A program made the position numbers and the translations under genes. Shown one piece after another: positions 13,627 through 62,459 of a stretch of 64,000 nucleotides of DNA; the stretch's first letter is position 1; the number at the start of each line of letters is the position of its first letter. The notes beneath the pieces were generated by a model. The model ran no database searches. It had not been told where the DNA came from and worked only from the letters and a program-made list of their open reading frames with translations. The stretch spans positions 8,386-72,385 of the forward strand of contig CBDUZS010000003.1 of assembly GCA_965371785.1 (NCBI GenBank). The letters are read 5' to 3'. The stretch is from an uncultured bacterium (GTDB taxonomy: Bacteria > Fermentibacterota > Fermentibacteria > Fermentibacterales > JCC-6).

Positions 13627-13642
13627 ACCTGGAGATTACAGC

Positions 13643-13996
13643 ATGAGCAGAACAAGAAATGCAGTTGCGCGCAGAAAGCGCCACAAGAAGGTTCTCAAAG
13701 CCGCCAGAGGTAAGGTTGGCGGCAGGAGGAAGCTCTACACCGTTGCATGCGAAGCCAACAGAAAGGCTCTCGAGTACCAGTACAGAGACCGCAGGACGAA
13801 GAAACGGGACTTCAGATCTCTCTGGATCACCAGGATAAATGCAGCTTCCAGGGAGAATGGACTGTCGTACAGCGACCTCATCAATGGCCTTGCCAGAGCA
13901 GGAATCAAGCTGAACAGGAAGGTCCTTGCCAGTCTTGCAGTGGGAGATCCCGATGCCTTCACAAGTATAGTCGAGACAGCGAAAGCTGCTTTGTAG
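13643..13996 (+). CDS. rplT: 50S ribosomal protein L20
   Basis: 117 aa, begins [23 protein letters not shown], a typical L20 N-terminus. Confidence 0.9.
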
Positions 13997-14026
13997 CGTT
14001 ACCGGGAAGGACATCGAGTCAGGAGC

Positions 14027-49795: not shown

Positions 49796-52117
49796 ATGGC
49801 TGAAATTCATGAGATCCTGCGCAGGACCCCGCTGTTCTGCAGCCTGTCGGCACATGAAGTCGAGAAGCTCGTAGAGAACAGCGACCTGAGGATCATCAGC
49901 GCGGGCGAAGAGATCATCAGGTTCGGACAGAAAGGCAGGTTTCTGGGCGTAATACTGTCCGGAGAAGTCGAAGTGACGGAAAAGGACGAAGATGGAGAAC
50001 ATCATCTCCTTGCCACCCTTGGGGATGGTGATTTCTTTGGAGAGATGTCACTGATGACGGGTGAGCCGGCCTGTGCATACGTTACGGCTTTGAAAGAGTC
50101 TCATGTCATCCTGATTCCCTATCATTTTTGCTCCATGGTGCTCAGTGATAAGCCTGAGATCATCACCGTGATAGTGAGGGCCATCAGCAGCAGGCTCAGA
50201 AATCGAAGGCAGGATGAGAAGGCTCGCCTTCGGGTCGAGGATGCCTGGCGCGCAGCTCCCGACAGGTACGGGCTCGATCTGACGTCTGCCACCCCCGCCA
50301 GGATTCTCGTTATCAACTGTGGCAGTTCCTCGCTCAAGTACAGCTACTTCGACACCATGGATGAATCGAATAACCGGGAAGGTCTCGTCGAGAGGATAGG
50401 CGGTGAGCAAGGACGCCTCGTCTACGGGGCAGGCGGTGAGCGCAGGAAACGGGATCTGGGCAGAATAGACCATGACATGGCTTTCGAAGCCGTCGTTTCG
50501 ATTCTTACCGACGATGAGGACGGTGTGATAGAGGATCTGAGTGATCTCACCGGTGTCGGGCACAGGGTCGTTCATGGTGGATCGAAGTACAGCAGTTCGG
50601 TCTTCATAGATGACGATGTAATCAGGGAGATCGATGAACTGTCCAGCCTCGCTCCGCTTCACAACCCCCCGAATCTCATCGCGATAAAGAAGAGCAGAGC
50701 TCTGATGCCGGAGGTTCCGCAGGTTGCGGTTTTCGACACCGCTTTTCACCAGAAGATGCCGAAGCAGGCTTTCCTCTACGGCCTTCCCCTCAGGTACTTC
50801 GAGGAGGAAGGGATTCGCAGGTATGGTTTTCACGGGATATCTCACAACTTCCTGGCCCTGAAAGCAGCCTCTGCTCTTAAAGTAGGGTTCAGGGATCTGA
50901 AGGTCATCACCTGCCATCTCGGTAACGGCGCCTCCATATGCGCAATAGATCACGGCAGGTCCGTGGACACCAGTATGGGGCTTACTCCGCTCGAGGGTCT
51001 TGTCATGGGAACCAGATGCGGCGATCTCGATCCGGGAGCGGTTCTTCATCTCGTTCGGAAGAATGGGATGTCTGCTGAAGAGATCGACAACATGCTGAAT
51101 CGGGAGAGCGGCGTGAAAGGTATTTCCGGTATCTCGAACGATTTCAGGGAACTGGAGGATGCGGCAAGCCAGGGTGATCATGATGCTCTTCTTGCCCTGC
51201 ACGTCTTCTGCTACAGGATCAGGAAATACATCGGTGCCTACATGGCCGCCATGGGCGGTCTCGATGTCCTTGTCTTTGCCGGCGGAATAGGGGAGCGCAG
51301 CCCATGGGTGAGGGGGCTGTCATGCCAGGGTCTTTCAGGGATGGGCATCGACATAGATGACCTCGTGAACCGGGGCATCTTCCTCTCACCGGGAGATGAC
51401 CTGGTCGATATCTCGACCCACGATTCCAGAGTAAAGGTGATGGTCATACCCACTGACGAGGGAAGAATGATCGCCAGGGAGACAATACGTACGCTCGGCT
51501 ACCATACTGCAGGAGAAGTGATCCGAAGCAAGAAGGTGATGATCCCTATCAGGGTCTCCGTTCATCACGTTCACCTCTCGAAAGAGGATGCTGCCCTGCT
51601 CTTCGGCAGGGAGCACGAGTTCGAGTACAGAAAACACCTTTCCCAGCCTGGGCTGTATTCCTGCGAGGAAAAAGTCGATCTGGAAGGCCCCAGGGGAACT
51701 GTTAGTGGCGTAAGTATTTATGCTCCATTCAGAAAGAGCACACAGGTCGAGGTCTCGGTGTCCGATGAATCTCTGCTGGGAATAAGGGCGCCGATCCGCC
51801 GCTCCGGTGATCTCGGGGGAACTCCGGGAGTCATGCTTCGGGGTCCGGAAGGTGTTCTCAAACTCTCCGGTGGTGTGATTCGTATTCTACGGCACATACA
51901 TGCCACGCCTGAAGATGCGTTCCACCAGGGGTTGAAGGATGGAGACCGTGTGATGGTCCGCACCGGTGGTGAGCGAGGTCTGATCTTCGATAACGTTCTC
52001 GTCCGGGTCGATCCCGATTACAAGCTGTGTATGCACATCGACATCGATGAGGCAAACGCGGCCAACGTCAGGTCCGATACGGAGGGTGAATTCGTTGGCA
52101 TTCAGGATCGGAAGTAA
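49796..52117 (+). CDS. three-domain fusion: cNMP-binding domain + acetate/propionate kinase + PduL-type phosphotransacylase
   Basis: Residues ~1-140 form a cyclic-nucleotide-binding fold (FGEMSLMTGEPACAYV). Residues ~165-580 are acetate kinase (VINCGSSSLKYS, HRVVHGG, VFDTAFHQ, GFHGISH, ITCHLGNGASICAI, GLTPLEGLVMGTRCGDLDPG). Residues ~585-773 carry PduL/EutD twin repeats (VSVHHVHLS, SGDLGGTPGV, RHIHATPEDA, GLIFDNVLVRVDPDYKLCMHIDIDEANAA). Confidence 0.85.
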   Translation: MAEIHEILRRTPLFCSLSAHEVEKLVENSDLRIISAGEEIIRFGQKGRFLGVILSGEVEVTEKDEDGEHHLLATLGDGDFFGEMSLMTGEPACAYVTALKESHVILIPYHFCSMVLSDKPEIITVIVRAISSRLRNRRQDEKARLRVEDAWRAAPDRYGLDLTSATPARILVINCGSSSLKYSYFDTMDESNNREGLVERIGGEQGRLVYGAGGERRKRDLGRIDHDMAFEAVVSILTDDEDGVIEDLSDLTGVGHRVVHGGSKYSSSVFIDDDVIREIDELSSLAPLHNPPNLIAIKKSRALMPEVPQVAVFDTAFHQKMPKQAFLYGLPLRYFEEEGIRRYGFHGISHNFLALKAASALKVGFRDLKVITCHLGNGASICAIDHGRSVDTSMGLTPLEGLVMGTRCGDLDPGAVLHLVRKNGMSAEEIDNMLNRESGVKGISGISNDFRELEDAASQGDHDALLALHVFCYRIRKYIGAYMAAMGGLDVLVFAGGIGERSPWVRGLSCQGLSGMGIDIDDLVNRGIFLSPGDDLVDISTHDSRVKVMVIPTDEGRMIARETIRTLGYHTAGEVIRSKKVMIPIRVSVHHVHLSKEDAALLFGREHEFEYRKHLSQPGLYSCEEKVDLEGPRGTVSGVSIYAPFRKSTQVEVSVSDESLLGIRAPIRRSGDLGGTPGVMLRGPEGVLKLSGGVIRILRHIHATPEDAFHQGLKDGDRVMVRTGGERGLIFDNVLVRVDPDYKLCMHIDIDEANAANVRSDTEGEFVGIQDRK

Positions 52118-52315: not shown

Positions 52316-53782
52316 ATGAACGAAGGGCTGTTGAAGGATCTCGAGAATATCGTAGGGGTTGATAACGTCAGGGCCGATCCTGGCAATCTCTCCGCGTACG
52401 GCTCGGATTCTTCCGTACATTCCGCTCAGCCTTCCGTGGTCGTACGACCGGAGAAGGTCGAGCAGGTTCAGGAGATATTGCGATATGCGAACAGTAATCT
52501 GATTCCCGTGATTGCGCGGGGTGCGGGAACGGGAATGTCCGGACAGGCAATCCCCATAAACGGCGGGATCGTCATGGACATGAAACTGATGAACCACATC
52601 CTTGACATCCGTCCCGAAGACACGCTCTGCGTGGTCGAGCCGGGGGTCGTAGACGACGATCTCAACCGTGCTCTGAAACCGACAGGCTTTTTCTTCTCGC
52701 CCACACCTGCATCCAGTCGGCTCGCAACCATCGGCGGCGAGATTGCCAACAACGCCAGTGGGCTCCGTTCGGTGAAGTACGGTGCCACCCGTGATTCAGT
52801 GCTCGGAATGAAGGTTGTCCTTGCCAACGGTGATCTGGTGAATCTGGGCGCTAACACCAGAGTCGAGGCATCCGGATATCAGATCGACAGACTCATGGTC
52901 GGCTCGGAGGGTACGCTTGGCGTAATCGTCGAAGCGACCCTCAAGATTGTACCGATTCCGAAATTCAGATGCATGGCCGTTGCATGTTTCAACACGCTCG
53001 AAGATGCGGGTAGTACGATCTGCGATGTCATGAAGAGTGGAGCGGTTCCCTCCGTTCTCGAGCTCATGGACAACGTTGCCATAAAGGCAGTGAACACCGC
53101 TCTCGATATGGGGCTTCCGGATGTGGAAGCCATCCTCTTCTTCGAGGCGGACGGCAACGTGAAGGAAGCAATCGATTACGAACTCGCCAAGATCAGGGAA
53201 ATCTGCGAGAAGCATGACTCTTTCGGAATCGAGATGAGCTACGATGCCAAGGAGAGAACACGACTCTTCTCCGGTCGGAAGAAACTCTTTGCCGCCCTGT
53301 CCCGTTACCAGGAGGGTCTTTCCTGCATGTCTCTTGCAGACGACATGGCCGTTCCCTACTCCAAGATGGCAGAGTGCGCAAGTAAGATCCACGAGATTGC
53401 CGATCGTAACAACGTCGTCATGTCGGCTTATGGGCACTGCGGTTCAGGTTGTGTCCATACGAAGATACTCATGGATCCCACGAAGGAAACGCAGTGGGAT
53501 GATGCCCGTAAGGCGGTTTCCGAAGTCTACGAGTTCGTGCGCTCCGTCGGAGGAACGACTTCAGCCGAGCACGGGATCGGCCTCTCGAAGGCACCGGCCT
53601 TCAAGAAGGAGAAGGCTGACTCGCTCGGAATCATCAGAGCCATCAAGCATGCTCTCGACCCGAACAACATTCTCAACCCATCCAAGATGCAGGATGCGCC
53701 GGATGACTGGGTTACTGCCACCGATCTGAGGTACCCGGTGGACACTCACACTTCCGGCAGTCGGGAAGGATTGGAGAAGTGA
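52316..53782 (+). CDS. FAD-linked oxidase (GlcD / D-lactate dehydrogenase family)
   Basis: PCMH-type FAD-binding domain (VVRPEKVEQVQEILRYAN...IPVIARGAGTGMSG) plus a C-terminal FAD-oxidase domain. 488 aa. Confidence 0.85.
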   Translation: MNEGLLKDLENIVGVDNVRADPGNLSAYGSDSSVHSAQPSVVVRPEKVEQVQEILRYANSNLIPVIARGAGTGMSGQAIPINGGIVMDMKLMNHILDIRPEDTLCVVEPGVVDDDLNRALKPTGFFFSPTPASSRLATIGGEIANNASGLRSVKYGATRDSVLGMKVVLANGDLVNLGANTRVEASGYQIDRLMVGSEGTLGVIVEATLKIVPIPKFRCMAVACFNTLEDAGSTICDVMKSGAVPSVLELMDNVAIKAVNTALDMGLPDVEAILFFEADGNVKEAIDYELAKIREICEKHDSFGIEMSYDAKERTRLFSGRKKLFAALSRYQEGLSCMSLADDMAVPYSKMAECASKIHEIADRNNVVMSAYGHCGSGCVHTKILMDPTKETQWDDARKAVSEVYEFVRSVGGTTSAEHGIGLSKAPAFKKEKADSLGIIRAIKHALDPNNILNPSKMQDAPDDWVTATDLRYPVDTHTSGSREGLEK

Positions 53783-54339
53783 TGATACCGGAGTTCAAAA
53801 GGTTGAAGACCTGGAAAAAGGAACTTAACATCTGCATCCGCTGCGGTTACTGCTACGAACTCTGCCACCTCTTCAAGTCGAAATTCTGGGAAGTCGACAC
53901 ACCCAGGGCAAAACTCATTCTTCTCTACCGCCTGATGAACGGTGAGATTGAATGCACGGATGAGATTGCGGACAAGATCGCCGAGTGCTTCCATTGCAGG
54001 AACTGCGAACGCAGCTGCGCGGCCAAGATCCCGGTAACCGACATCATTCAGGATGCGAAAGCCGACCTTGCCGATGCAGGTTTCGAGTTCCGTGGTACGG
54101 CTGCTCTTGTCGATGACGACATCTGTGGCCACTGCGGGATGTGCTCATCCGTATGCAAGGTCGAGGCCATAACGATCGATGAGGATATGAAACGGATAGT
54201 AGACCCCGTCATATGCGTGAGCTGCGGTGTCTGTGTTGCGTCATGCCCATCCGGAGCCATTACCCAGAAGGAAGGCTTCGGCATACTGGAAAGCGATCTC
54301 AGAGAGAGTATGCTCTCCTCACTCGCTGGAGGTGCGTAA
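53779..54339 (+). CDS. iron-sulfur protein with four Cys motifs
   Basis: Four CxxCxxCxxxC motifs (CIRCGYCYELC, CFHCRNCERSC, CGHCGMCSSVC, CVSCGVCVASCP). Translationally coupled to the flanking genes. Confidence 0.8.
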   Translation: MMIPEFKRLKTWKKELNICIRCGYCYELCHLFKSKFWEVDTPRAKLILLYRLMNGEIECTDEIADKIAECFHCRNCERSCAAKIPVTDIIQDAKADLADAGFEFRGTAALVDDDICGHCGMCSSVCKVEAITIDEDMKRIVDPVICVSCGVCVASCPSGAITQKEGFGILESDLRESMLSSLAGGA

Positions 54340-54752
54340 TGAGCGGGAAACCGAAGGTTGTCGTTTTCTGCTGCAACTGGTCGGTCTATCCGGGGCTGCA
54401 GCTCTCGCGAATGCTGAACAAGGGGAGCGATGCCACTATCGAGCCCATCGTAACCATGTGCTCCGGCCGGGTGAGCCCCGAGCTCGTAATCGAGGCGTTC
54501 TCCAGCGGCGCATGGGGTGTCATGGTAACAGGCTGCCCTCCCGAAGAGTGTGATCACGATGGCAATTACAACGCACGGAGGAGAATGACATTGCTCAGGG
54601 CGACGCTTGCACAACTGGGGATATCCCCTGAGCGGATTGCTATGGACTGGTTCTCCCCTGGGGAATCGGCAAAGCTCAAGAGCGCCGTGAGCTCTTTTGC
54701 CGAACAGATCTCACAGCTGGGTCCGATGAAGTCGGTCCAGGAACTGGCATGA
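54339..54752 (+). CDS. mvhD: MvhD/FlpD-like hydrogenase iron-sulfur subunit
   Basis: Begins KPKVVVFCCNWSVY, followed by conserved Cys residues (PF02662-like). Start is the internal ATG at 54339 with a GGAGGTG RBS. The longer ORF starting at 54213 is rejected. Confidence 0.75.
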   Translation: MSGKPKVVVFCCNWSVYPGLQLSRMLNKGSDATIEPIVTMCSGRVSPELVIEAFSSGAWGVMVTGCPPEECDHDGNYNARRRMTLLRATLAQLGISPERIAMDWFSPGESAKLKSAVSSFAEQISQLGPMKSVQELA

Positions 54753-54758
54753 GGTGAA

Positions 54759-55736
54759 ATGATGAGTAAACCAAAAGTTGCCCTGTACTGGTGCGCTTCA
54801 TGCGGCGGTTGTGAAGAAGCGGTAATCGACCTGGCCGAAGATCTGCTGAAGGTAACAGAGGCCGTGGATATCGTCTTCTGGCCCGTCGCGCTGGATTTCA
54901 AGAAGAAGGACGTCGAAGCCCTGGAGGACGGCGAGATAGCCCTGACCTTCATCAACGGCGCCGTCCGTACCGAAGAACAGAAGGAAATGGTAGAGCTGCT
55001 TCGGCGCAAATCCGGTCTGGTCATAGCCTTCGGCTCATGTGCCCATATTGGCGGCATACCCGGCCTGGCCAATTTCTACGACCGCGAGAAAGCCTTTGAA
55101 CGGGCTTACATCACCACTCCTTCCACCGTAAATCCGGAGGGGGTCCTTCCCTCTACCGAAACGGATGTCGACGGATACAGGCTGACACTGCCCGAATTCT
55201 GGAACACCGTGCATACACTTGATCAGGTTATCGATGTTGACTACTACCTGCCTGGCTGTGCTCCGCCGCCCGACCTCATCATGGATGCGATCACGGCCGT
55301 TCTCACGGATAGCCTGCCGGAAAAGGGAGCGGTGCTCGCACCGGTTAAATCCCTTTGCGATACGTGCCCCAGATCCGATTCGAAACCTCTGAAAATTTCC
55401 ATCAGCAGCCTGAAAAGACCACACGAGGTGATGCCCGATCCGGAGAAGTGCTTCCTCGAGGAAGGGCTGATCTGCCTCGGAATGTCCACGAGGTCAGGGT
55501 GCGGGGAACGCTGTATCAACGCAAACATGCCCTGTCGAGGCTGCTTCGGTCCCCTGGACGGTGTGTTCGACGGTGGCGCGAAAGCGTTGTCGGCTATTGC
55601 TTCGATCCTCGAACTGGAAGACGAGGAGAACGCAACCGAAGAGGACCTGCTCAAACTGTTGAAGCCTATTGCCGACCCGGCGGGCCTGTTCTACATGTAC
55701 AGCCTGCCATCGTCTCTGCTGAGAAGGAGCCAGTAA
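54759..55736 (+). CDS. mvhG: [NiFe]-hydrogenase small subunit (group 3, MvhG-like)
   Basis: N-terminal CASCGGCEE proximal-cluster motif, GSCA motif, and C-terminal Cys clusters. GAGGTGA RBS. Confidence 0.85.
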   Translation: MMSKPKVALYWCASCGGCEEAVIDLAEDLLKVTEAVDIVFWPVALDFKKKDVEALEDGEIALTFINGAVRTEEQKEMVELLRRKSGLVIAFGSCAHIGGIPGLANFYDREKAFERAYITTPSTVNPEGVLPSTETDVDGYRLTLPEFWNTVHTLDQVIDVDYYLPGCAPPPDLIMDAITAVLTDSLPEKGAVLAPVKSLCDTCPRSDSKPLKISISSLKRPHEVMPDPEKCFLEEGLICLGMSTRSGCGERCINANMPCRGCFGPLDGVFDGGAKALSAIASILELEDEENATEEDLLKLLKPIADPAGLFYMYSLPSSLLRRSQ

Positions 55737-55737
55737 G

Positions 55738-57198
55738 ATGGCAAAGCAGATCACAATCGACCCGATTACCAGACTCGAGGGCCACGGCAAGATCGAGATA
55801 TTCCTCGATGACAACGGAAACGTCGACAAAGCCTTTCTCCAGGTTCCGGAGTTCAGAGGCTTCGAGAAGTTCTGTGAAGGCCGTATGGCCGAAGAGCTGC
55901 CCCGAATCACACCCAAGATATGTGGTGTCTGTCCGACCACTCATCACATGGCTTCCGGCAAGGCTCTCGATGACCTCTACAAAGTCGAAGTCCCACCCGC
56001 AGGAAAGAAGATAAGGGAACTGGTCAACTCGGCCTTCATGGCGGAGGATCACACCCTCCACTTCTTCTTCCTCGGCGGTCCGGATTTCATCGTGGGGCCC
56101 ACGGCGCCTGCGGGCAGCAGGAACATCCTCGGAGTCATCGAGAAAGTCGGCCTGGAGGCCGGCAAACAGGTGATTTCCATAAGAAAGCGGCTTCGCGAAG
56201 TAATCACGAAGCAGGGTGGAAGGGTGATACATCCGGTCTGCAACCTTCCCGGGGGGGTATCGAAAGGTGTTACTCCCGAGGACAGGGAGGAGTACATCGC
56301 GACCGGCAAGGCAGCAGTCGAGTTCTCACAGTTCGCCCTGAAAGCCTTTGCCGACATCGTCCTGGAAAACAAGTCGTACGTCGACCTGATAGTGGGGGAC
56401 GTCTACAAGCACAGCACGTACTACATGGGGCTCGTCGACTCGAACAACAAGGTGAATTTCTACGAGGGCGATGTTCGTGTAGTGGATCCCGACGGAGTCG
56501 AGTACGCGAAGTTCGGACCGAAGGATTACCTGAAGCACATCGCCGAGCACGTCGAGCCCTGGAGCTACATCAAGTTTCCCTACCTCAGGAACGTCGGATG
56601 GAAGGGGTTCGTCGATGGGAAAGACAGCGGTATCTACCGTGTCGCCCCCCTCGCGAGACTCAACGTATCCGACGGAATGGCCACACCGGAAGCCCAGGAG
56701 GCGTACGAAAAGATGTACTCCGTTCTCGGGGGAAAGCCTGCCCACAACACCCTCGCCTACCACTGGGCAAGACTCATCGAGCTGCTCTACGCGTCCGAAC
56801 GGCTTTTAGAGCTTGCTGAGGACGAGGAGATTCTCGACCCGAACGTAAGGGCCATCCCTACGGCTACGCCTTCGGAGGGAATCGGAATCGTCGAAGCACC
56901 CAGAGGTACACTGATCCACCATTACCTGACCGACAGCAACGGTGTTATCACGGGAGTCAACCTGATAGTAGCCACCGTGAACAACGCCGCCGCCATCAGC
57001 ATGTCGATATCGAAGGCTGCAAAGGGTTTGATAAAGAACGGAGAAGTATCCGAAGGGCTTCTCAACATGGTCGAGATGGCCTTCAGAGCTTACGACCCCT
57101 GTCTTGCCTGTGCCAGCCATTCCCTGCCGGGTGAAACCCCGCTGGAAGTGAGCGTTATCGATTCTTCGGGCAGCCTCTTGAAGAAGATCAGGTCCTGA
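55738..57198 (+). CDS. mvhA: [NiFe]-hydrogenase large subunit (group 3, MvhA-like)
   Basis: N-terminal RxCGVC motif (PKICGVCPTTHH) and C-terminal DPCLACASH Ni-binding motif. Confidence 0.9.
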   Translation: MAKQITIDPITRLEGHGKIEIFLDDNGNVDKAFLQVPEFRGFEKFCEGRMAEELPRITPKICGVCPTTHHMASGKALDDLYKVEVPPAGKKIRELVNSAFMAEDHTLHFFFLGGPDFIVGPTAPAGSRNILGVIEKVGLEAGKQVISIRKRLREVITKQGGRVIHPVCNLPGGVSKGVTPEDREEYIATGKAAVEFSQFALKAFADIVLENKSYVDLIVGDVYKHSTYYMGLVDSNNKVNFYEGDVRVVDPDGVEYAKFGPKDYLKHIAEHVEPWSYIKFPYLRNVGWKGFVDGKDSGIYRVAPLARLNVSDGMATPEAQEAYEKMYSVLGGKPAHNTLAYHWARLIELLYASERLLELAEDEEILDPNVRAIPTATPSEGIGIVEAPRGTLIHHYLTDSNGVITGVNLIVATVNNAAAISMSISKAAKGLIKNGEVSEGLLNMVEMAFRAYDPCLACASHSLPGETPLEVSVIDSSGSLLKKIRS

Positions 57199-57253
57199 CC
57201 GTTATGGGGGGCAGTCTTCCGGCTGCCCCCATCCCGTCCGCCGGGGAATTACA

Positions 57254-57730
57254 ATGAATAGAATCCTTGTACTGGGTCTCGGGAATCCCATTCTCTCCGA
57301 TGATGGTGTCGGCCTGTGGATTGCCCGCAGGCTGGGGGAGAGGCTGCCCGAAATCGAAGTGAGGGAGGAAGCCATTGCCGGCATTTCGATTCTCGACGTG
57401 GTGCAGGGCTTTTCCAGGCTCGTTATCATCGATTCGATCATGACTGAAGACGGTCTTCCCGGGCAGCTTCACAGGCTCACTCTCGAAGATCTTGGTCCCG
57501 CAGTGGCTGCGGTATCACACCATGGAACGGGGCTGGCTTCGACGTTCGAAGTGGGCAGGCTGATGGGGTACGAACTCCCGGAATCGGTTGAGATCTATGC
57601 CGTCGAGATAGAGAACAACACCGAATTCGGAGAGTGCTTCAGTCCCGAAGTCGAGAAACGGCTGCCAGGGATAGTGGAGACGATTCTAAGAGATTCCTTC
57701 GGTGGCCGGAGTTTCCGTTCCGATTCCTAA
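57254..57730 (+). CDS. hydrogenase maturation endopeptidase (HycI/HyaD family)
   Basis: 158 aa, begins ILVLGLGNPILSDDGVGL, then a conserved His/Asp block. Immediately after the large subunit. Confidence 0.8.
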   Translation: MNRILVLGLGNPILSDDGVGLWIARRLGERLPEIEVREEAIAGISILDVVQGFSRLVIIDSIMTEDGLPGQLHRLTLEDLGPAVAAVSHHGTGLASTFEVGRLMGYELPESVEIYAVEIENNTEFGECFSPEVEKRLPGIVETILRDSFGGRSFRSDS

Positions 57731-58968
57731 CCGATCTTCGGTACGGACATGGAACCGCTCATCAGTACGACCACGTGAGCCTGTGGACCCATGACGGACA
57801 GCGCTTCGTCGACCGCTGCCTGCAGATCGCTCCAGGGCCTGATGAAGCATGAATTCAGTACGTCATCATCCAGGTCGGTGTAACCCCACATCTCACCCCG
57901 GATAGCGATCTCCGCCATCTTTCCCGCCTTGTGCCAGCCCAGTTCGTACCCGTCGTCGAGCAGCCTGAGAGTCTCCCCGGGCGTATCGCATGACGCGAGA
58001 AGCTTCACGAAGGCTTCCTCTCCGATGCCGTCTCGGCACTTCGAAACCATGAGCAGTATTCCACCATCGACCAGAGCCAGCTTCCCGTTGTCCAGGGCTT
58101 TCTGGGACTGGTAGAGGTCGATGTCCATCGGGTAGGGGGCGATGCTGATGACCAGTTCAGCCTTTCTGGAAACCGGAACGCAGTAGACATCGTTGGCTTT
58201 TTCGATGGCCGCATAGAAGCTTCCATGAATGTGTCCTGCCGTTGCCGCGTAGATGCGGTGATCTCCATCCAGCACCGTCATTATGGAGAAGATAGGCTTC
58301 TTCGAGATCGTTTTGAGGGCATCGATCATGTCGTCATGAACAGGATTTCCATCCAGGGCAAGGGCAGAAGATTCCGGTCTGAGAGCGTATTTGTGATTCT
58401 GCTCGATGGTCCTGAAGGATGCGATTCCCGGCAGGAAGGCTTTTCGTCCACCCGTGTAACCAGCGAAGTAGTGGGGTTCGACGGAACCGATTATGACGAA
58501 CTCGTCTGCTTCGACACCGGCCCTGTTGACGTACATCTCGGTACCGTTCTTCGATGTGCCGATGTGGATCATGTCACGGTCTTTCCGGGCATCATGCATG
58601 ATCACGTTGTCCTGGACTTCTTCGTACAGGTCACCGAAGATTTCCTTTAGCTCCTCCTCGGTGGATGCTCGGTGTACTCCCGTTGCAACGATGAATTTGT
58701 GGGGAATCTTCTTGAGATCGTTCCAAATGAGCGAGAGAACTCTTGCGGTTGGCGTAGGACGTGTGGCGTCGTTGACTATGACGAGAGTGTTGCCGCACGC
58801 GCTCACGAACTCGGAGAAACTGGGGGAATCGACGGGGTTCTCGAGTGCGGAACGAAGGACCTCTTCCTCATCGCCGGAGGGAACGGAGTTCGGGTACACA
58901 ACTTCGGCGCTGTCGGGTAATTCCAGCGGGATACTGCCGTCTCTTCCGTAGGGAACGTCTATTCTCAT
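57727..58968 (-). CDS. larA: LarA-family nickel-pincer 2-hydroxyacid racemase/epimerase (lactate racemase-like)
   Basis: 413 aa. DUF2088/LarA N-terminal region (NDATRPTP) and the catalytic block EPHYFAGYTGGRKAFLPG. Its start is fused (ATGA-type overlap) to the upstream aconitase gene. Confidence 0.75.
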   Translation of the reverse strand: MRIDVPYGRDGSIPLELPDSAEVVYPNSVPSGDEEEVLRSALENPVDSPSFSEFVSACGNTLVIVNDATRPTPTARVLSLIWNDLKKIPHKFIVATGVHRASTEEELKEIFGDLYEEVQDNVIMHDARKDRDMIHIGTSKNGTEMYVNRAGVEADEFVIIGSVEPHYFAGYTGGRKAFLPGIASFRTIEQNHKYALRPESSALALDGNPVHDDMIDALKTISKKPIFSIMTVLDGDHRIYAATAGHIHGSFYAAIEKANDVYCVPVSRKAELVISIAPYPMDIDLYQSQKALDNGKLALVDGGILLMVSKCRDGIGEEAFVKLLASCDTPGETLRLLDDGYELGWHKAGKMAEIAIRGEMWGYTDLDDDVLNSCFIRPWSDLQAAVDEALSVMGPQAHVVVLMSGSMSVPKIG

Positions 58969-60908
58969 TATCGGTCTCCATCTCCGCAGCGAATCCAGTT
59001 GAGCAGCCCACCTGCCAGGATAATTTCGATATCCCGCCCCGAGAGAGTGTGGCCGACTTCGAACCTGTGACCGGTCGTGTGATCGATTACACTCAATTTC
59101 TTATCCACCGACAGGTACTGCCGAGGATTCACGATCTCAAGCTCGTGTCCTGTCTTCAGAGCCCGGTAATCCTCCTCGGTCTCGAGCAGCAGAGGGAGAA
59201 TACCGGAATTGACGAGATTGGCAGTGTGAATCCGTTCGAACGAGCGTGCGAAAATTGCTTTGACACCCAGATGCATGGGGCAGATTGCCGCATGTTCACG
59301 GCTGGAGCCCTGTCCATAGCTCTCGCCGCCGACGATGAAATTGAACGAGCCGCCCGAGAGGTTCTCACGGCATCTTGCCGGAAAAGCCGGGTCGATTCCC
59401 TCGAACACGAAATCGGAGTACCTGTCTATGTTGGATCGGTAGATCAGACGTTTCCCGGCGGGCATGATGTGGTCGGTTGTTATCTTGTCACCCACGACCA
59501 GCTGTACCTTTCCCGTCAGCTTCTCGGGAAGGCTTTCGTTTACGGGGGGTGGGCCGATGTTAGGGCCTCTGATCGGTTCGAATGCTGGATCGTGCTCCAT
59601 TATCGTCATGCTGTCGTCAACCGGGAAGGAATCGGGTACGGTGATGGATGGGCAGGCTATCCCCAGTTCCCGCGGATCCGTGATTTCCCCGGTTATAGCA
59701 GCTGCCGCCGCAACCTCCGGGCTCACCAGGAAAACCTGTGCGCTTGCCGTTCCCGATCTGCCTTCGAAATTCCTGTTGGCCGTTCTGAGGGATATTGCAT
59801 CGGTGGCAGGAGCCATGCCGTTGCCGATACAGAACCCGCACGTGCTCTCTGCTATTCTTGCTCCGCTGTCGATGAGGGACTCGAGATGACCGGACCGTGC
59901 GATCATTGTCAGGACCTGCCTCGAGCCGGGTCCTATCGTGAGCCCTGTGTTTTTGTTCACCCTTTGTCCTGCGAGAATCTCCGCAGCCATTGCGAGATCC
60001 CTGAAGGAAGAGTTCGTACAGGAGCCGATGCAAACCTGATCCACCCGCGTACCGATCAATTCAGTGAGTGGAACAACGTTTCCAGGGGAGTGGGGGCAGG
60101 CTGCCATGGGCTCGATGCCGCACAGATCGAGTTCGATCTCCCTGTGATAAACGGCATCCGGATCGGCGTGCAGGGAGCGCCATCCATCCTCCCGGCCCTG
60201 GGCCCTGAGGAATGAGCGGGTGATTTCATCGGATGGGAAAAGCGATGTGGTCGCACCCGTTTCCGCTCCCATGTTCGTGATAGTCGCCCGGTCCTGCGCG
60301 AGCAGGTGAACAAGACCGTCACCGTAATACTCGTTGATTGTCCCGACGTTGCCTTTTGTCGTGAGGATGGACAGGATCTTCAGGATCAGATCCTTTGCCG
60401 AGACGAAATCCTGCAGCTTCCCGGTCAGTCTGATACCCGTAACCTTCGGGTAGGTCAGCCAGAATGGCTCTCCCGCCATCGCAACTGCCACGTCGAGACC
60501 CCCCGCGCCCATGGCCAGCATTCCCAGCCCACCTGCCGTCGGAGTGTGGCTGTCGGAACCGAGAAGTGTTTTTCCGGGAAGCGCGAATCTCTCGAAGTGG
60601 ACCTGGTGGCAGATGCCGTTGCCCGGGCGTGAGAAGCGGACTCCGTAGCGTTTCGCGACCGACTGGAGATACCTGTGGTCGTCGGCATTCTCGAACCCGC
60701 TCTGAACCATGTTGTGATCTACGTAGGAAAGAGAAAGCTCCGTCCGGATGCTATCCACACCGAGGGCTTCGAGCTGGAGAAAAGCCATCGTGCCGGTGGC
60801 GTCCTGTGTCAGGGTCTGATCTATCCTGATGGCTACTCTTTCACCCGGAACTGGTCTGCCCTCTACGAGATGCTCGTGTATGATCTTTTCTGCAGCCGTG
60901 AGGCTCAT
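58968..60908 (-). CDS. acn: aconitate hydratase (aconitase family, single-chain ~646 aa form)
   Basis: Aconitase catalytic domains (GSDSHT, Fe-S-ligating Cys, SREH/SR motif region) and a fused swivel domain. Confidence 0.8.
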   Translation of the reverse strand: MSLTAAEKIIHEHLVEGRPVPGERVAIRIDQTLTQDATGTMAFLQLEALGVDSIRTELSLSYVDHNMVQSGFENADDHRYLQSVAKRYGVRFSRPGNGICHQVHFERFALPGKTLLGSDSHTPTAGGLGMLAMGAGGLDVAVAMAGEPFWLTYPKVTGIRLTGKLQDFVSAKDLILKILSILTTKGNVGTINEYYGDGLVHLLAQDRATITNMGAETGATTSLFPSDEITRSFLRAQGREDGWRSLHADPDAVYHREIELDLCGIEPMAACPHSPGNVVPLTELIGTRVDQVCIGSCTNSSFRDLAMAAEILAGQRVNKNTGLTIGPGSRQVLTMIARSGHLESLIDSGARIAESTCGFCIGNGMAPATDAISLRTANRNFEGRSGTASAQVFLVSPEVAAAAAITGEITDPRELGIACPSITVPDSFPVDDSMTIMEHDPAFEPIRGPNIGPPPVNESLPEKLTGKVQLVVGDKITTDHIMPAGKRLIYRSNIDRYSDFVFEGIDPAFPARCRENLSGGSFNFIVGGESYGQGSSREHAAICPMHLGVKAIFARSFERIHTANLVNSGILPLLLETEEDYRALKTGHELEIVNPRQYLSVDKKLSVIDHTTGHRFEVGHTLSGRDIEIILAGGLLNWIRCGDGDR

Positions 60909-60986
60909 CTCGACCTCCCTGTATACTCAACTGCCGTCGGAACCCGATGTCTTCCGGGTTCCGACGGCAGCCTTCACTCCGTTCGG

Positions 60987-62258: not shown

Positions 62259-62459
62259 TTCGAACCTCCTAGTTACTTATTTTTCCATCCGGAAAGGTTG
62301 TTTCTCGATCTGTTATGTCTCTGATAATATGAGCGGGGAACGGGTGGTGCAAGCCTTGAAAACCACTGTCCCGGCATGAACAGAAAAGCAATCTTGTAAC
62401 CTCTGAGCCGTTCGGTCTATATTGCTTCATCACATCCGTAGAGCTTTTCCCCAGGGAGG

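What the first reader, a model, noticed from the sequence alone, without database searches (positions are those of the whole stretch)
52316..58968. [NiFe]-hydrogenase (MvhDGA type) partnered with a GlcD-like FAD oxidase and poly-ferredoxin instead of heterodisulfide reductase, next to a LarA racemase: putative lactate-H2 module
Gene order:
- FAD-linked oxidase (D-lactate dehydrogenase/GlcD family);
- Fe-S protein with four Cys motifs;
- MvhD-like subunit;
- hydrogenase small subunit (CASCGGCEE);
- large subunit (RxCGVC...DPCLACASH);
- maturation protease.

All are tightly spaced or overlapping on one strand. MvhADG normally docks to HdrABC. Here the only flavoenzyme candidate is a 2-hydroxyacid dehydrogenase.

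A LarA-family racemase lies immediately downstream, convergent. The Ack-PduL fusion and malic enzyme lie immediately upstream.

Together this suggests lactate (both isomers via LarA) to pyruvate coupled to H2 cycling, then to acyl-phosphate and ATP. The coupling of an Mvh-type hydrogenase to a lactate dehydrogenase is inference from gene order. It would be unusual energetically unless it is a confurcating or bifurcating arrangement.
Basis: inference. Interest (0 to 1): 0.65.

Follow-up and report, generated by a model that had tools for sequence, protein, structure and literature searches.

The report
Hydrogenase wired to hydroxyacid dehydrogenase
A tightly packed operon joins a nickel-iron hydrogenase to a flavin enzyme that oxidises D-2-hydroxyacids (probably D-malate, not lactate) through a dedicated iron-sulfur adaptor; the flavoenzyme-adaptor unit recurs in over 300 mostly uncultured species with different redox partners, and I found no description of it in the literature I could search.

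Summary
Window 52316-57730 holds GlcD-like flavoenzyme, a 4x[4Fe-4S] protein, MvhD, MvhG, MvhA and a maturation protease. Their junctions overlap or lie 1-6 nt apart. A LarA homologue is convergent downstream, and malic enzyme and Ack-PduL lie upstream. No Hdr, Etf or NAD(P)-binding partner occurs in the 64 kb.

Comparative data change the picture. The conserved unit is GlcD-FeS-MvhD. In 41 of 80 related loci FeS and MvhD are one polypeptide. GlcD sits directly upstream in 62 of 73 loci. The window's MvhD belongs to the FeS-bound MvhD clade, not the hydrogenase-type clade.

The unit appears with at least four alternative partners:
- Mvh-type hydrogenase, as here
- HdrA/HdrABC
- a Tfr-like fumarate reductase
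- MetVF

The substrate is more likely D-malate/oxaloacetate than lactate. The racemase has malate-racemase signature residues. All module GlcDs have an invariant Lys in the side-chain pocket. Recurrent neighbours are malic enzyme, fumarase, malate dehydrogenase, pyruvate carboxylase subunit B and fumarate reductase.

Best reading: a non-bifurcating H2:2-oxoacid oxidoreductase, analogous in principle to hydrogen-dependent CO2 reductase. It is a new variant built from known parts. Substrate and direction are inferred, not shown.

The parts
47493..49754 (+). NADP-malic-enzyme-type protein with a C-terminal PTA domain (MaeB architecture). Context gene that links the cluster to L-malate and pyruvate.
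   Evidence: Pfam malic, Malic_M and PTA_PTB. NCBIfam NF009501 scores 814 bits, below its cutoff of 1178. The same gene lies next to the module in L003, L014, L017, L019 and L021.
49796..52117 (+). Triple fusion of a cNMP-binding domain, acetate kinase and PduL phosphotransacylase. Context gene.
   Evidence: Pfam cNMP_binding, Acetate_kinase (7e-144) and PTAC (4e-64). An AckA-PduL fusion occupies the same position in Fermentibacteria locus L014.
52316..53782 (+). GlcD/LDHD-family FAD-dependent D-2-hydroxyacid dehydrogenase (488 aa). It belongs to a distinct subfamily with an invariant Lys383 in the side-chain pocket and a conserved C-terminal tail, DAPDDWVTATDLRY.
   Evidence: Pfam. TIGR00387 scores 396 bits, below its cutoff of 568. 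Closest solved relatives are a glycolate oxidase (9qgz, 265 bits), LctD (264), mouse LDHD (211) and D2HGDH (152). Catalytic residues R321, H374, H381, E418 and H419 are kept. The H-T-K motif is invariant in all 72 GlcDs of the related loci. E. coli GlcD has Leu at that position.
53782..54339 (+). Adaptor protein with four [4Fe-4S] clusters (185 aa). The N-terminal half resembles the N-terminal dicluster domain of GlcF/HdrC. The C-terminal half resembles the C-terminal ferredoxin domain of HdrA.
   Evidence: 16 invariant Cys. The N-half aligns to E. coli GlcF residues 21-94 (E 2e-11). The C-half aligns to HdrA residues 562-635 of 5odc_A and to HdrA2 564-626. AlphaFold2 gives pLDDT 89.6 and pTM 0.84; no full-length solved analogue was found by Foldseek. 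The family is compact: 22 representatives at E<=1e-30 among 1.84 billion clusters.
54339..54752 (+). MvhD-type [2Fe-2S] subunit (137 aa) of the FeS-associated paralogue group.
   Evidence: FlpD 2.1e-39. Full-length match to MvhD 5odc_D at 102 bits. It falls in a pure NJ clade of 81 FeS-fused or FeS-adjacent MvhDs. Mean identity is 50% to that clade and 35% to hydrogenase-type MvhDs. In 41 of 80 loci this domain is fused to the Fe-S protein.
54759..55736 (+). [NiFe]-hydrogenase small subunit, MvhG/VhuG type (325 aa).
   Evidence: Oxidored_q6. NF045875 VhuG scores 220 bits over the full length, below its cutoff of 450.
55738..57198 (+). [NiFe]-hydrogenase large subunit, group-3c-like (MvhA type, 486 aa), with KICGVC and DPCLACASH metal-site motifs and a cleavable C-terminal tail.
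   Evidence: MvhA 5odc_F scores 405 bits. HydABCSL large subunit 7t2r_D scores 403. NAD-reducing 5xf9 scores 329. Frh and sulfhydrogenase relatives score about 90-115. NF041785 VhuA scores 403 bits. It clusters with other MvhAs that follow FeS-MvhD, apart from the HdrABC-linked archaeal clade.
57254..57730 (+). Hydrogenase maturation endopeptidase (158 aa).
   Evidence: TIGR00072 scores 95 bits, above its cutoff of 47. Pfam HycI.
57727..58968 (-). Nickel-pincer (LarA-family) 2-hydroxyacid racemase homologue with a malate-racemase-like substrate signature (413 aa).
   Evidence: Lar_N and LarA_C. The NF052593 malate racemase LarAH6 model scores 358 bits and the LarA model 279, both below cutoff. 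The motifs PHYF, YQSQK and GWHK are conserved in all 30 module-adjacent homologues and match the Mar2 determinants Q293 and K351.
58968..63809 (.). Context only: aconitase (58968-60908, -), citrate synthase (60987-62258, -) and isocitrate dehydrogenase (62460-63809, +). These enzymes act at the oxaloacetate node. Membership in the system is uncertain.
   Evidence: Pfam. The same trio follows the module in L009 and L010, and occurs in L038 and L052.

Best explanation
**What it is.** The six translationally coupled genes most likely encode one soluble complex. In it, a group-3c-like [NiFe]-hydrogenase (MvhA/MvhG) is wired to the FAD of a GlcD-family D-2-hydroxyacid dehydrogenase.

**Proposed electron path (inferred).** NiFe site, then three [4Fe-4S] clusters in MvhG, then the [2Fe-2S] cluster in MvhD, then four [4Fe-4S] clusters in the adaptor, then FAD. 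The adaptor's HdrA-like ferredoxin half would face MvhD and its GlcF-like half would face GlcD.

**What is shown.**
- GlcD-FeS-MvhD is a conserved, portable module.
- The hydrogenase is one of at least four alternative partner modules. The others are HdrA/HdrABC, a Tfr-like fumarate reductase and MetVF.

**Chemistry (inferred).** No second flavin, Hdr or Etf is present, so the complex would be a simple, non-bifurcating H2:2-oxoacid oxidoreductase. It works on the same principle as hydrogen-dependent CO2 reductase.

**Substrate (inferred).** Most likely oxaloacetate/D-malate. The adjacent nickel-pincer racemase would interconvert D- and L-malate, connecting the module to NADP-malic enzyme, then to pyruvate and acetyl-phosphate, and to the citrate synthase node.

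**Direction (inferred).** Under standard conditions the favoured direction is H2 + oxaloacetate -> D-malate, about -47 kJ/mol from textbook potentials of -414 and -172 mV. That would amount to an H2-fed 'malate shunt' yielding NADPH. The reverse reaction, malate -> oxaloacetate + H2, is conceivable only at very low H2 and very low oxaloacetate.

**Sub-confidences.**
- Physical and functional coupling of GlcD-FeS-MvhD: about 0.85.
- Coupling of that module to this hydrogenase: about 0.7.
- Malate rather than lactate: about 0.6.
- H2 uptake as the physiological direction: about 0.5.
For: **Operon structure.** Junctions are TGATG, TAATG, 6 nt and 1 nt, each with a Shine-Dalgarno-like GGAG upstream.

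**Gene fusion.** About 20 of 52 protein homologues and 41 of 80 genomic loci have FeS and MvhD as one polypeptide.

**Synteny.**
- MvhD is fused or adjacent in 78 of 78 loci.
- GlcD lies directly upstream in 54 of 73 loci, and upstream with one CCG protein in between in a further 8.
- MvhG-MvhA directly follows FeS-MvhD in 21 of 81 loci. Eleven of these, including the window, have GlcD and no HdrA, HdrB or SdhA in the held flanks.
- Two archaeal loci carry a second, dedicated hydrogenase right after the module.

**MvhD identity.** The window's MvhD lies in a pure clade of 81 FeS-type MvhDs. It is the only MvhD in the window.

**Adaptor domains.** The N-half resembles GlcF. The C-half resembles the HdrA C-terminal ferredoxin domain, which precedes the MvhD domain in HdrA2.

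**No alternative partner.** No Hdr, Etf or NAD(P) partner occurs in 64 kb.

**Substrate.**
- LarA homologue signature and model scores.
- Desguin 2020 Table S1 lists a LarAH group associated with COG0277 and COG1908 (MvhD), which the authors call 'putative malate racemases'.
- GlcD Lys383 is invariant. It occupies the position of I407 in mouse LDHD and N443 in D2HGDH, which line the side-chain pocket.
- Eleven Chloroflexota loci read PycB-GlcD-FeS-MvhD-racemase-fumarase-HdrCB-SdhBA-fumarase beta, with no other enzyme for the oxaloacetate-malate step.
- Cloacimonadota and Armatimonadota loci add two bona fide malate dehydrogenases.
Against: - No biochemical or expression data exist. Complex formation is inferred from gene order, fusions and phylogeny only.
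- By overall similarity, the GlcD is closer to lactate- and glycolate-acting enzymes (LctD 264 bits, glycolate oxidase 265) than to the D-malate-active D2HGDH (152).
- The racemase's best solved hit by score is a lactate racemase apoprotein (204 vs 188 bits). Its loop is HYF, not the HYK of Mar2.
- The role of Lys383 is read from an alignment, not from a structure.
- Pta/Ack neighbours fit lactate-to-acetate as well as malate-to-acetate.
- In most hydrogenase-containing relatives HdrA is nearby (14 of 19). The genome outside this window, and about 10 kb of the source contig, are unseen.
- Close relatives such as L014 carry an extra CCG-domain protein between GlcD and FeS. Its role is unexplained.
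- GlcD-family enzymes usually act as oxidising dehydrogenases, which argues against the H2-uptake direction.
Confidence: 0.55

Rival explanations
1. The flavoenzyme is a D-lactate dehydrogenase and the LarA homologue is a lactate racemase. The complex couples lactate/pyruvate to H2, and pyruvate then goes on to acetyl-phosphate and ATP.
For: - The closest characterised GlcD relatives act on lactate or glycolate (LctD 264 bits, mouse LDHD 211).
- The best solved hit for the racemase is a lactate racemase apoprotein.
- Acetate kinase, PduL and a PTA domain lie immediately upstream.
- The wiring evidence is the same as for the best explanation.
Against: - The racemase lacks the lactate-specific FF loop, V297 and W358. 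It has the Q and HK of malate racemases in all 30 homologues.
- The LarA model scores 279 bits, below its cutoff of 460 and below the malate racemase model's 358.
- The GlcD side-chain pocket carries an invariant Lys instead of the hydrophobic I, L or Y found in lactate and glycolate enzymes.
- The same orthologues sit in operons made only of C4-dicarboxylate enzymes. The 'Ldh'-family neighbours are malate dehydrogenases.
Confidence: 0.2
2. The GlcD-FeS-MvhD module and the hydrogenase are both clients of an HdrA flavoprotein encoded elsewhere in the genome. The real machine would then be a flavin-based bifurcating or confurcating complex. One version is H2 -> ferredoxin + 2-oxoacid, with the oxoacid couple replacing the heterodisulfide. 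The reverse version is hydroxyacid + reduced ferredoxin -> H2.
For: - HdrA is adjacent in 14 of 19 well-flanked hydrogenase-containing loci.
- Seven loci have HdrA-MvhD-GlcD-FeS-MvhD with neither HdrBC nor a hydrogenase.
- MvhD is the known docking adaptor for HdrA in the Mvh, Fdh, Elp and MetFV complexes.
- The oxoacid couples, about -170 to -190 mV, are close to the heterodisulfide couple (textbook values).
Against: - No HdrA occurs in 64 kb, nor within +/-10 kb in the window-type relatives L014, L017, L019 and L021.
- Only one MvhD is present, and it is translationally coupled on one side to FeS and followed 6 nt later by MvhG.
- The MvhAs that follow FeS-MvhD form their own clade, apart from the HdrABC-linked ones.
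- The adaptor already carries an HdrA-like ferredoxin domain, which could substitute for the HdrA interface.
Confidence: 0.15
3. The two enzymes are neighbours but not partners. FeS-MvhD-MvhGA would be a ferredoxin-type (polyferredoxin-linked) hydrogenase. GlcD would deliver electrons to some other acceptor, and adjacency would reflect only co-regulation.
For: - A few loci have FeS-MvhD-MvhGA without GlcD in the held sequence, for example L037, L071, L012 and L013.
- The Fe-S protein shows weak similarity to polyferredoxins VhuB, MvhB and FwdF.
Against: - GlcD sits directly upstream of FeS in 85% of loci, including many with no hydrogenase at all.
- The GlcD stop overlaps the FeS start.
- The FeS N-terminal half is the GlcF-type domain that partners GlcD-family flavoproteins.
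- The window holds no other acceptor for GlcD, such as a CCG protein, Etf or cytochrome.
Confidence: 0.07

Closest known systems
MvhADG-HdrABC, the H2:heterodisulfide/ferredoxin bifurcating complex of methanogens (PDB 5ODC)
   Same: The large, small and MvhD subunits are clear homologues: 405 bits to MvhA and 102 bits to MvhD. The same maturation protease is present. MvhD acts as the bridge to the partner, and the adaptor's C-terminal half resembles the HdrA ferredoxin domain.
   Different: There is no HdrA, HdrB or HdrC in the window, so there is no bifurcating flavin and no disulfide-reducing CCG site. The partner is a GlcD-family flavoenzyme reached through a new four-cluster protein. The MvhD belongs to a separate paralogue clade.
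Hydrogen-dependent CO2 reductase (HDCR: hydrogenase + formate dehydrogenase + small Fe-S subunits; PDB 7QV7). Comparison by working principle, from my own knowledge.
   Same: A hydrogenase is wired directly, through small Fe-S subunits, to a substrate oxidoreductase. This allows H2 to reduce a carbon substrate without NAD(P) or ferredoxin and without bifurcation.
   Different: HDCR uses an [FeFe]-hydrogenase and a Mo/W formate dehydrogenase. Here the parts are a [NiFe] group-3c-like enzyme and an FAD-dependent 2-hydroxyacid dehydrogenase. The only sequence relation is generic ferredoxin-domain similarity.
Other MvhD-bridged complexes: FdhAB-MvhD-HdrABC (7BKB), Elp-Hdr (8RVU) and MetFV-MvhD-HdrABC of Moorella
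   Same: MvhD serves as a portable connector between a substrate module and a redox partner. Five Acidobacteriota/Myxococcales loci even place the GlcD-FeS-MvhD module next to MetV-MetF.
   Different: In all known cases MvhD connects to HdrA. In the window it would connect a hydrogenase to a non-Hdr flavoenzyme. A GlcD-family donor is not among the 12 bifurcating enzyme types catalogued by Poudel et al. 2018.
Lactate dehydrogenase-EtfAB complex LctBCD of Acetobacterium woodii (PDB 7QH2)
   Same: LctD is one of the two closest solved relatives of the flavoenzyme (264 bits). It is a GlcD-family enzyme embedded in a multi-subunit soluble electron-transfer complex of an anaerobe.
   Different: The partner there is EtfAB with NAD and ferredoxin (confurcation). 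Here there are no Etf genes. The pocket residue is Tyr in LctD and Lys here.
GlcDEF glycolate dehydrogenase, and the GlcD + Fe-S/CCG D-lactate dehydrogenases of sulfate reducers and archaea (HdrD/GlcD)
   Same: A GlcD flavoprotein hands electrons to a subunit whose N-terminal dicluster domain is homologous to the adaptor's N-half. Relatives of the window keep such a CCG protein (L003, L014), and a GlcD-CCG fusion exists (P0305).
   Different: The window's adaptor has no CCG domain, so it has no quinone or disulfide site. Instead it carries a 2x[4Fe-4S] ferredoxin domain followed by MvhD. GlcD scores below the GlcD equivalog cutoff (396 < 568). There is no GlcE.
Malate racemase Mar2/LarAH6 and the 'group 4 putative malate racemases' of Desguin et al. 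2020
   Same: The NPN-binding and catalytic residues are present, as are Q before the catalytic Lys and the G-x-H-K motif. That paper tabulated an association of group 4 with COG0277 and COG1908.
   Different: The loop is H-Y-F rather than H-Y-K. The score is below the model cutoff (358 < 500). Activity is untested. I could not verify that the window protein belongs to their group 4.

Membership tests
Group 3c [NiFe]-hydrogenase (Mvh/Vhu type) | Large subunit with N- and C-terminal CxxC Ni-Fe ligand motifs and a protease-cleaved C-terminus | tested here: met
   The motifs KICGVC and DPCLACASH are present, followed by a 25-residue tail, and a maturation protease gene is adjacent.
Group 3c [NiFe]-hydrogenase (Mvh/Vhu type) | Large subunit closest to MvhA/VhuA rather than to groups 3a, 3b, 3d, 1 or 2 | tested here: inconclusive
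   MvhA 5odc_F scores 405 bits. The NAD-reducing 3d-type 5xf9 scores 329, Frh about 105-114 and sulfhydrogenase about 90. However, the HydABCSL large subunit 7t2r_D scores equally at 403. NF041785 gives 403 bits against a cutoff of 800. No HydDB or reference phylogeny was run.
Group 3c [NiFe]-hydrogenase (Mvh/Vhu type) | MvhG-type small subunit and MvhD [2Fe-2S] subunit encoded alongside | tested here: met
   VhuG model scores 220 bits over the full length. MvhD 5odc_D scores 102 bits over the full length. The MvhD is, however, a distinct FeS-associated paralogue.
Mvh-Hdr electron-bifurcating complex | HdrA (bifurcating FAD) and HdrBC encoded with, or available to, the hydrogenase | tested here: not met
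   No HdrA, HdrB or HdrC homologue occurs in the 64 kb window (Pfam scans). None occurs within +/-10 kb in the window-type relatives L014, L017, L019 and L021. The rest of the genome cannot be tested.
GlcD/LDHD/D2HGDH subfamily of VAO/PCMH flavoproteins (D-2-hydroxyacid dehydrogenases) | FAD_binding_4 plus FAD-oxidase_C domains, and the metal/substrate residues of subsite A (R347, H398, H405, E442, H443 of mouse LDHD) | tested here: met
   Both domains are present. R321, H374, H381, E418 and H419 align to those residues and are invariant in 72 relatives.
Glycolate oxidase subunit GlcD (equivalog) | Score above the curated cutoff; GlcE and GlcF partners | tested here: not met
   TIGR00387 scores 396 against a cutoff of 568. 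NF008408 scores 295 against 897. There is no GlcE and no CCG-containing GlcF in the window.
D-lactate-specific dehydrogenase (LDHD/LctD type) | Hydrophobic side-chain pocket (V101, W351, S365, I407 in mouse LDHD) | tested here: not met
   The aligned residues are M74, F325, A341 and K383. A Lys replaces I407 and is invariant in the subfamily. This is alignment-based; no structure with ligand is available.
Lactate racemase LarA | NPN-binding and catalytic residues (D72, R75, H108, H174, K184, K298 equivalents) | tested here: met
   The motifs NDATRPT, TGVHRAS, EPHYF, GGRKAF and YQSQK are conserved in all 30 homologues.
Lactate racemase LarA | Lactate-specific determinants F175-F176, V297 and W358; score above the equivalog cutoff | tested here: not met
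   The residues are Y-F, Q and H-K instead. NF033504 scores 279 against a cutoff of 460.
Malate racemase (Mar2/LarAH6) | Y172-K173 loop, Q293, K351 (G-x-H-K); score above cutoff | tested here: inconclusive
   Q and G-W-H-K are present. The loop is Y-F rather than Y-K. NF052593 is the best-scoring model, but at 358 bits against a cutoff of 500. Enzyme activity cannot be tested here.
Lactate dehydrogenase-Etf confurcating complex | EtfA and EtfB encoded with the GlcD-family dehydrogenase | tested here: not met
   No ETF-domain protein appears among the window ORFs scanned with Pfam.

The most novel reading that the evidence does not exclude
GlcD-FeS-MvhD, usually with a nickel-pincer malate racemase, is a previously unrecognised redox cassette. 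It is widespread: at least 302 species-level genomes across more than 10 bacterial and archaeal phyla. It would link the D-malate/oxaloacetate couple to whichever partner is plugged into MvhD: a hydrogenase, HdrA, a fumarate reductase or methylene-THF reductase.

In this window it would form a new enzyme, a hydrogen-dependent oxaloacetate reductase (equivalently, a malate:H+ hydrogen-lyase). That enzyme would give fermenters and syntrophs an NAD-independent link between H2 and the C4-dicarboxylate pool. It would also supply the missing physiological role for the abundant malate racemases.
Probability: 0.4. Interest if true: 0.82.

Novelty: new variant of a known kind. Interest (0 to 1): 0.68.

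Why it matters
Mvh-type hydrogenases and MvhD are thought of almost exclusively as feeders of heterodisulfide reductase. If this reading is right, several things follow.

- MvhD would have been co-opted into a second, very conserved cassette. The module GlcDs compared are 66-72% identical between bacteria and archaea.
- A [NiFe]-hydrogenase could be wired straight to a central-metabolite dehydrogenase. That is a NiFe/flavin counterpart of hydrogen-dependent CO2 reductase.
- It would give a concrete, testable role to malate racemases. The people who discovered them regard their in vivo function as an open question.
- It would offer a candidate enzyme for the thermodynamically awkward malate/oxaloacetate step in H2-linked fermentations and in syntrophic succinate or propionate metabolism. 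The lineages involved (Fermentibacteria, Cloacimonadota, Dehalococcoidia, Thermoplasmatota, WOR-3, KSB1) are known only from metagenomes.
- It cautions against annotating every mvhDGA cluster as 'Hdr-linked, bifurcating'.

Tried and rejected
**Attempts that led nowhere**
- Retrieving the source contig and organism by exact look-up of the window's MvhA and GlcD failed. The Fe-S protein look-up returned only two short contigs.
- Foldseek of the confident Fe-S model against the PDB gave only single ferredoxin-domain hits (TM <= 0.34). It therefore gave no help on quaternary arrangement.
- The promoter and terminator scan was uninformative: fewer promoter-like sites than in shuffled sequence.
- Literature searches found HdrD/GlcD and Hdr/Mvh discussions but no description of the GlcD-FeS-MvhD cassette. 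The term pairs and triples were MvhADG+GlcD, MvhD+lactate racemase, MvhD+D-lactate dehydrogenase, MvhD+glycolate oxidase, MvhD+fumarate reductase+malic enzyme, and MetV+MvhD+lactate. The papers read were. The library is incomplete, so this is absence of evidence only.
- P0057, a 561-aa apparent fusion of the adaptor's N-half, carries FliG and GNAT domains. I dismissed it as a chimera or irrelevant.

**Ideas considered and rejected**
- Glycolate as substrate: it is achiral, so a co-conserved racemase would be pointless.
- Tartrate dehydratase instead of fumarase in the Chloroflexota operons: the fumarate hydratase model scores above its cutoff and the tartrate model below.
- An Etf-type confurcation: there are no Etf genes.
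- An alternative genetic code suggested by the in-frame TAG in ThrRS: it is a single case, and all other genes are intact.

**Not possible**
- A multimer structure prediction could not be run. The tool folds single chains and refuses artificial fusions.

Full report
**1. What is in the window**

| Coordinates | Product |
|---|---|
| 52316-53782 | GlcD-family FAD-linked oxidase |
| 53782-54339 | 185-aa Fe-S protein |
| 54339-54752 | MvhD |
| 54759-55736 | MvhG-type small subunit |
| 55738-57198 | [NiFe] large subunit |
| 57254-57730 | Maturation protease |
| 57727-58968 (-) | LarA homologue, convergent |

- Upstream lie a malic-enzyme/PTA fusion and a cNMP-binding/acetate-kinase/PduL fusion.
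- Downstream of the racemase lie aconitase, citrate synthase and isocitrate dehydrogenase.
- The junctions are TGATG (GlcD/FeS), TAATG (FeS/MvhD), 6 nt (MvhD/MvhG) and 1 nt (MvhG/MvhA), each preceded by a GGAG-like motif. This is the signature of a translationally coupled operon.
- Public gene calls on other contigs use the same starts, giving 185 aa and 137 aa.
- The rest of the window is bacterial housekeeping: RNase Y, IF-3, SMC, FtsY, DXS and tRNA synthetases. It contains no Hdr, Etf, NAD(P)-binding hydrogenase subunit, hyp or larBCE genes.

**2. The individual parts**

- *Large subunit.* Its best solved relatives are MvhA of the Mvh-Hdr complex (405 bits) and the large subunit of the HydABCSL NiFe hydrogenase (403 bits). 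These are ahead of an NAD-reducing enzyme (329) and far ahead of Frh or sulfhydrogenase types. It is therefore group-3c-like. I could not run HydDB.
- *MvhD.* It matches solved MvhD over its full length.
- *Fe-S protein.* It has 16 invariant cysteines in four CxxCxxCxxxC motifs.
  - Its N-terminal half aligns to the N-terminal dicluster domain of E. coli GlcF (E 2e-11).
  - Its C-terminal half aligns to the C-terminal ferredoxin domain of HdrA (5odc_A 562-635). In HdrA2 that stretch immediately precedes the fused MvhD domain.
  - AlphaFold2 gives a confident two-domain model (pLDDT 89.6, pTM 0.84). Foldseek finds no full-length analogue in the PDB.
  - An exhaustive profile search of 1.84 billion cluster representatives finds only 22 at E <= 1e-30, of which four or five are full length. 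The family is compact and sharply defined.

**3. The conserved unit is GlcD-FeS-MvhD, not MvhDGA**

- A protein search with the Fe-S protein found 52 homologues at 50-90% identity. About 20 of them are single polypeptides of FeS plus MvhD.
- A scan of one genome per GTDB species found 302 loci. I analysed the best 80. They come from Thermoplasmatota, Fermentibacteria, Dehalococcoidia/Chloroflexota, Cloacimonadota, WOR-3, Marinimicrobia, KSB1, Acidobacteriota, Coatesbacteria, Armatimonadota, Gemmatimonadota, Spirochaetia and others.
- I mapped genes in these loci with phmmer, using seeds taken from the window and from annotated loci.
  - MvhD is fused or immediately downstream in 78 of 78 loci (41 fused).
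  - GlcD is immediately upstream in 54 of 73 loci, and upstream with one CCG-domain protein in between in a further 8.
- In an NJ tree of 138 MvhD domains, the 81 that are fused to or directly follow the Fe-S protein form a pure clade that includes the window's MvhD.
- The window's MvhD is on average 50% identical to that clade, 35% to the MvhDs that follow the hydrogenase protease in Thermoplasmatota, and 37% to HdrA-adjacent ones.

**4. Alternative partners**

The cassette occurs in recurrent contexts.

| Context | Where |
|---|---|
| (a) MvhG-MvhA-protease directly downstream, no Hdr in the held flanks | The window type: window, L009, L010, L014, L017, L019, L021, L028, L032, L046, L075. 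MvhGA is direct in 21 of 81 loci overall. |
| (b) HdrA-HdrC-HdrB-MvhG-MvhA-protease-MvhD-GlcD-FeS-MvhD-MvhD-HdrA | Thermoplasmatota |
| (c) HdrA-MvhD-GlcD-FeS-MvhD, with neither HdrBC nor hydrogenase | Seven loci |
| (d) PycB-GlcD-FeS-MvhD-racemase-fumarase alpha-HdrC-HdrB/SdhE-like-SdhB-TfrA-like-fumarase beta | Eleven Chloroflexota loci |
| (e) SdhBA-GlcD-FeS-MvhD-(CCG)-MvhGA-protease-fumarase-two malate dehydrogenases-(racemase) | Cloacimonadota, Armatimonadota |
| (f) GlcD-FeS-MvhD-racemase-MetV-MetF | Five Acidobacteriota/Myxococcales loci |

- MvhA sequences that follow FeS-MvhD cluster together. They are separate from the archaeal HdrABC-linked clade.
- Two archaeal loci, L046 and L048, have a second, very divergent hydrogenase placed right after the cassette.
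- The hydrogenase coupling seen in the window is thus one recurrent way of using a portable module.

**5. Which substrate?**

*Points toward lactate or glycolate.* By overall similarity the flavoenzyme is nearest to a glycolate oxidase (265 bits), LctD (264) and mouse LDHD (211). It is less close to D2HGDH (152).

*Points toward D-malate/oxaloacetate.* Four independent lines of evidence.

1. *Racemase determinants.* Desguin et al. define three substrate-determining regions. LarA has F175-F176, V297 and W358. Malate racemase Mar2 has Y172-K173, Q293 and K351.
   - The window protein and all 29 other module-adjacent homologues have H-Y-F, YQ[SA]QK and G[YW]HK. That is malate-type in two regions and half in the third.
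   - The best NCBIfam model is the LarAH6 malate racemase (358 bits vs 279 for LarA). Both are below cutoff.
   - Their Table S1 already lists a LarAH group associated with COG0247, COG0277 (GlcD) and COG1908 (MvhD). Table S3 calls that group 'putative malate racemases'. I could not verify that the window's protein is in that group.
2. *GlcD pocket.* I aligned it to mouse LDHD and human D2HGDH using the residue lists in PMC10589216.
   - The catalytic subsite A is intact: R321, H374, H381, E418, H419.
   - The side-chain pocket position is I407 in LDHD, N443 in D2HGDH, Tyr in LctD and Leu in E. coli GlcD. Here it is Lys383, within an H-T-K motif invariant in all 72 GlcDs of the loci.
   - A cationic residue there suggests a second carboxylate on the substrate.
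3. *Neighbours.* These are malic enzyme, Fe-S fumarase (above cutoff), malate dehydrogenases (above cutoff, so not lactate dehydrogenases), pyruvate carboxylase subunit B/oxaloacetate decarboxylase alpha, Tfr-like fumarate reductase, and in the window citrate synthase.
4. *Pathway completeness.* In the Chloroflexota operon the only candidates for the oxaloacetate-malate step are GlcD plus the racemase.

*Judgement.* I put malate at about 0.6, lactate at about 0.25 and other 2-hydroxyacids at the remainder. The Lys argument rests on an alignment, not on a structure.

**6. Mechanism and direction**

- The window has one flavin, no Hdr or Etf, and an uninterrupted series of predicted clusters: three in MvhG, one in MvhD and four in the adaptor. 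The simplest reading is a non-bifurcating electron wire between the NiFe site and the GlcD FAD.
- Using textbook potentials (my knowledge: H+/H2 -414 mV, oxaloacetate/malate about -172 mV, pyruvate/lactate about -190 mV), H2-driven oxoacid reduction is exergonic by roughly 43-47 kJ/mol. The reverse needs very low H2 and a very low oxoacid/hydroxyacid ratio.
- In window-type loci, the racemase, NADP-malic enzyme, Ack-PduL and the cassette form one co-directional cluster (L014, L003, L017, L019, L021).
- A linear route therefore uses every gene: oxaloacetate + H2 -> D-malate -> L-malate -> pyruvate + CO2 + NADPH -> (acetyl-CoA) -> acetyl-P -> acetate + ATP. This would be an H2-fed version of the malate shunt. 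It is inference.
- The oxidative direction cannot be excluded. It would dispose of malate electrons as H2, with oxaloacetate pulled away by decarboxylation or by citrate synthase. It fits the usual oxidising role of GlcD-family enzymes.
- In the Chloroflexota operons the natural reading is oxidative: D-malate oxidation feeding fumarate reduction, a malate dismutation.

**7. Rivals**

- *Lactate version.* It keeps the wiring but fails the racemase and pocket tests.
- *Hidden HdrA.* An HdrA encoded elsewhere could make the system bifurcating. This is suggested by the frequent HdrA neighbours in other lineages (14 of 19 well-flanked hydrogenase loci). There is no support for it in 64 kb or in the closest well-flanked relatives, and the single MvhD is tightly coupled on both sides.
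- *Mere co-location.* This is contradicted by the GlcD-FeS overlap, the 85% adjacency including hydrogenase-less loci, and the GlcF-like domain.
- *An unexplained point.* Close relatives such as L014 and L003 insert a TfrB/HdrD-like CCG protein between GlcD and the adaptor, and a GlcD-CCG fusion exists. The window lineage lacks it.

**8. Comparison with the known, and novelty**

- All domains are known. The working principle resembles hydrogen-dependent CO2 reductase. The connector logic resembles the Fdh-, Elp- and MetFV-MvhD-Hdr complexes.
- Three things appear to be new:
  - an MvhD paralogue bound to a GlcF/HdrA-hybrid four-cluster protein;
  - its obligatory pairing with a distinct GlcD subfamily and, often, a nickel-pincer racemase;
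  - its direct pairing with a hydrogenase in the absence of Hdr.
- Six full-text searches and ten papers yielded no description of this cassette (22, 26-28, 40, 42, 45, 46, 79, 96, 97).
- Poudel et al.'s catalogue of MvhD-containing bifurcating systems lists only Mvh, Fdh and Met.
- The searchable library is incomplete, so prior description elsewhere cannot be excluded.
- I rate it a new variant of a known kind, with interest 0.68. The genomic evidence for the cassette is strong and broad. The enzymology (substrate, direction, whether bifurcation occurs) is entirely inferred.

**9. Likely organism**

- The closest loci are L009 (89% Fe-S identity), L010 (74%, uncultured bacterium) and L011 and L014 (Candidatus Fermentibacteria). 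The MvhA tree groups the window with these.
- L009 is labelled Thermoplasmatota but is syntenic with this clearly bacterial window. It is probably misbinned.
- A Fermentibacteria-like bacterium is the best guess. I did not test this further.

Noticed in passing
window 10948-12891 (+): The threonyl-tRNA synthetase reading frame is interrupted by a single in-frame TAG at 11899-11901. This splits it into a TGS+SAD part and a catalytic+anticodon part. It could be an assembly error, a pseudogene or a recoding event.
   Followed up: partly
window 5498-10703 (-): Six tandem paralogous ORFs of about 220 aa lie at 6287-10703. They are 46-74% identical, have signal-peptide-like N-termini and share a C-terminal motif, LDRTTWGxVKTLFQ. 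A distant seventh copy lies at 5498-6181. None has a Pfam hit.
   Followed up: partly
window 49796-52117 (+): An unusual triple fusion joins a cyclic-nucleotide-binding domain, acetate kinase and PduL phosphotransacylase in one 773-aa protein. An AckA-PduL fusion occupies the same position in Fermentibacteria locus L014.
   Followed up: no
window 44156-47461 (+): A 1101-aa protein carries a CotH kinase domain and a lamin-tail domain. It lies next to an O-antigen-ligase-like (Wzy_C) gene.
   Followed up: no
L083-L087, about 8500-14000: In Acidobacteriota and Myxococcales MAGs the cassette and racemase are followed by MetV and MetF (methylene-THF reductase). This suggests a hydroxyacid-linked methylene-THF reductase without HdrABC.
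   Followed up: partly
L022, L026, L036, L041, L045, L053, L062, L082 (e.g. L036 6822-17638): Chloroflexota operons read PycB/OadA-like, GlcD, FeS-MvhD, racemase, fumarase alpha, HdrC-like, HdrB/SdhE-like, SdhB-like, TfrA-like, fumarase beta. This looks like a self-contained malate dismutation or reductive C4 branch.
   Followed up: partly
L046 and L048: These archaeal loci carry two MvhG-MvhA sets. One follows HdrABC. The other is very divergent and lies directly after GlcD-FeS-MvhD.
   Followed up: partly
L009 (JAJISI010000029.1): This contig is labelled Thermoplasmatota archaeon. Yet it is 89% identical in the Fe-S protein and syntenic with this window, which encodes bacterial-type genes (RNase Y, IF-3, SpoIIE, FtsY). 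It is probably a misbinned contig.
   Followed up: no
P0305 (831 aa); L003 6774-7832; L014: A GlcD-Fer4_8-CCG fusion protein exists at 71% identity. Several relatives insert a TfrB/HdrD-like CCG protein between GlcD and the adaptor. Its role alongside the adaptor is unexplained.
   Followed up: partly
L014 15782-20041; L004 10378-12239; L008 607-2490: A pair of genes recurs near the cassette in some lineages: a Fer4_22 protein and an FAD/NAD-binding protein with a DHODB-type Fe-S domain, resembling sulfhydrogenase beta/gamma or AsrAB. In L014 it precedes membrane-bound group-4-like hydrogenase genes. It is absent from the window.
   Followed up: no
L007 10331-11074: A PF04029 (2-phosphosulfolactate phosphatase) gene lies directly after the racemase in one locus. 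This is a weak hint that sulfolactate-type substrates might deserve a look.
   Followed up: no
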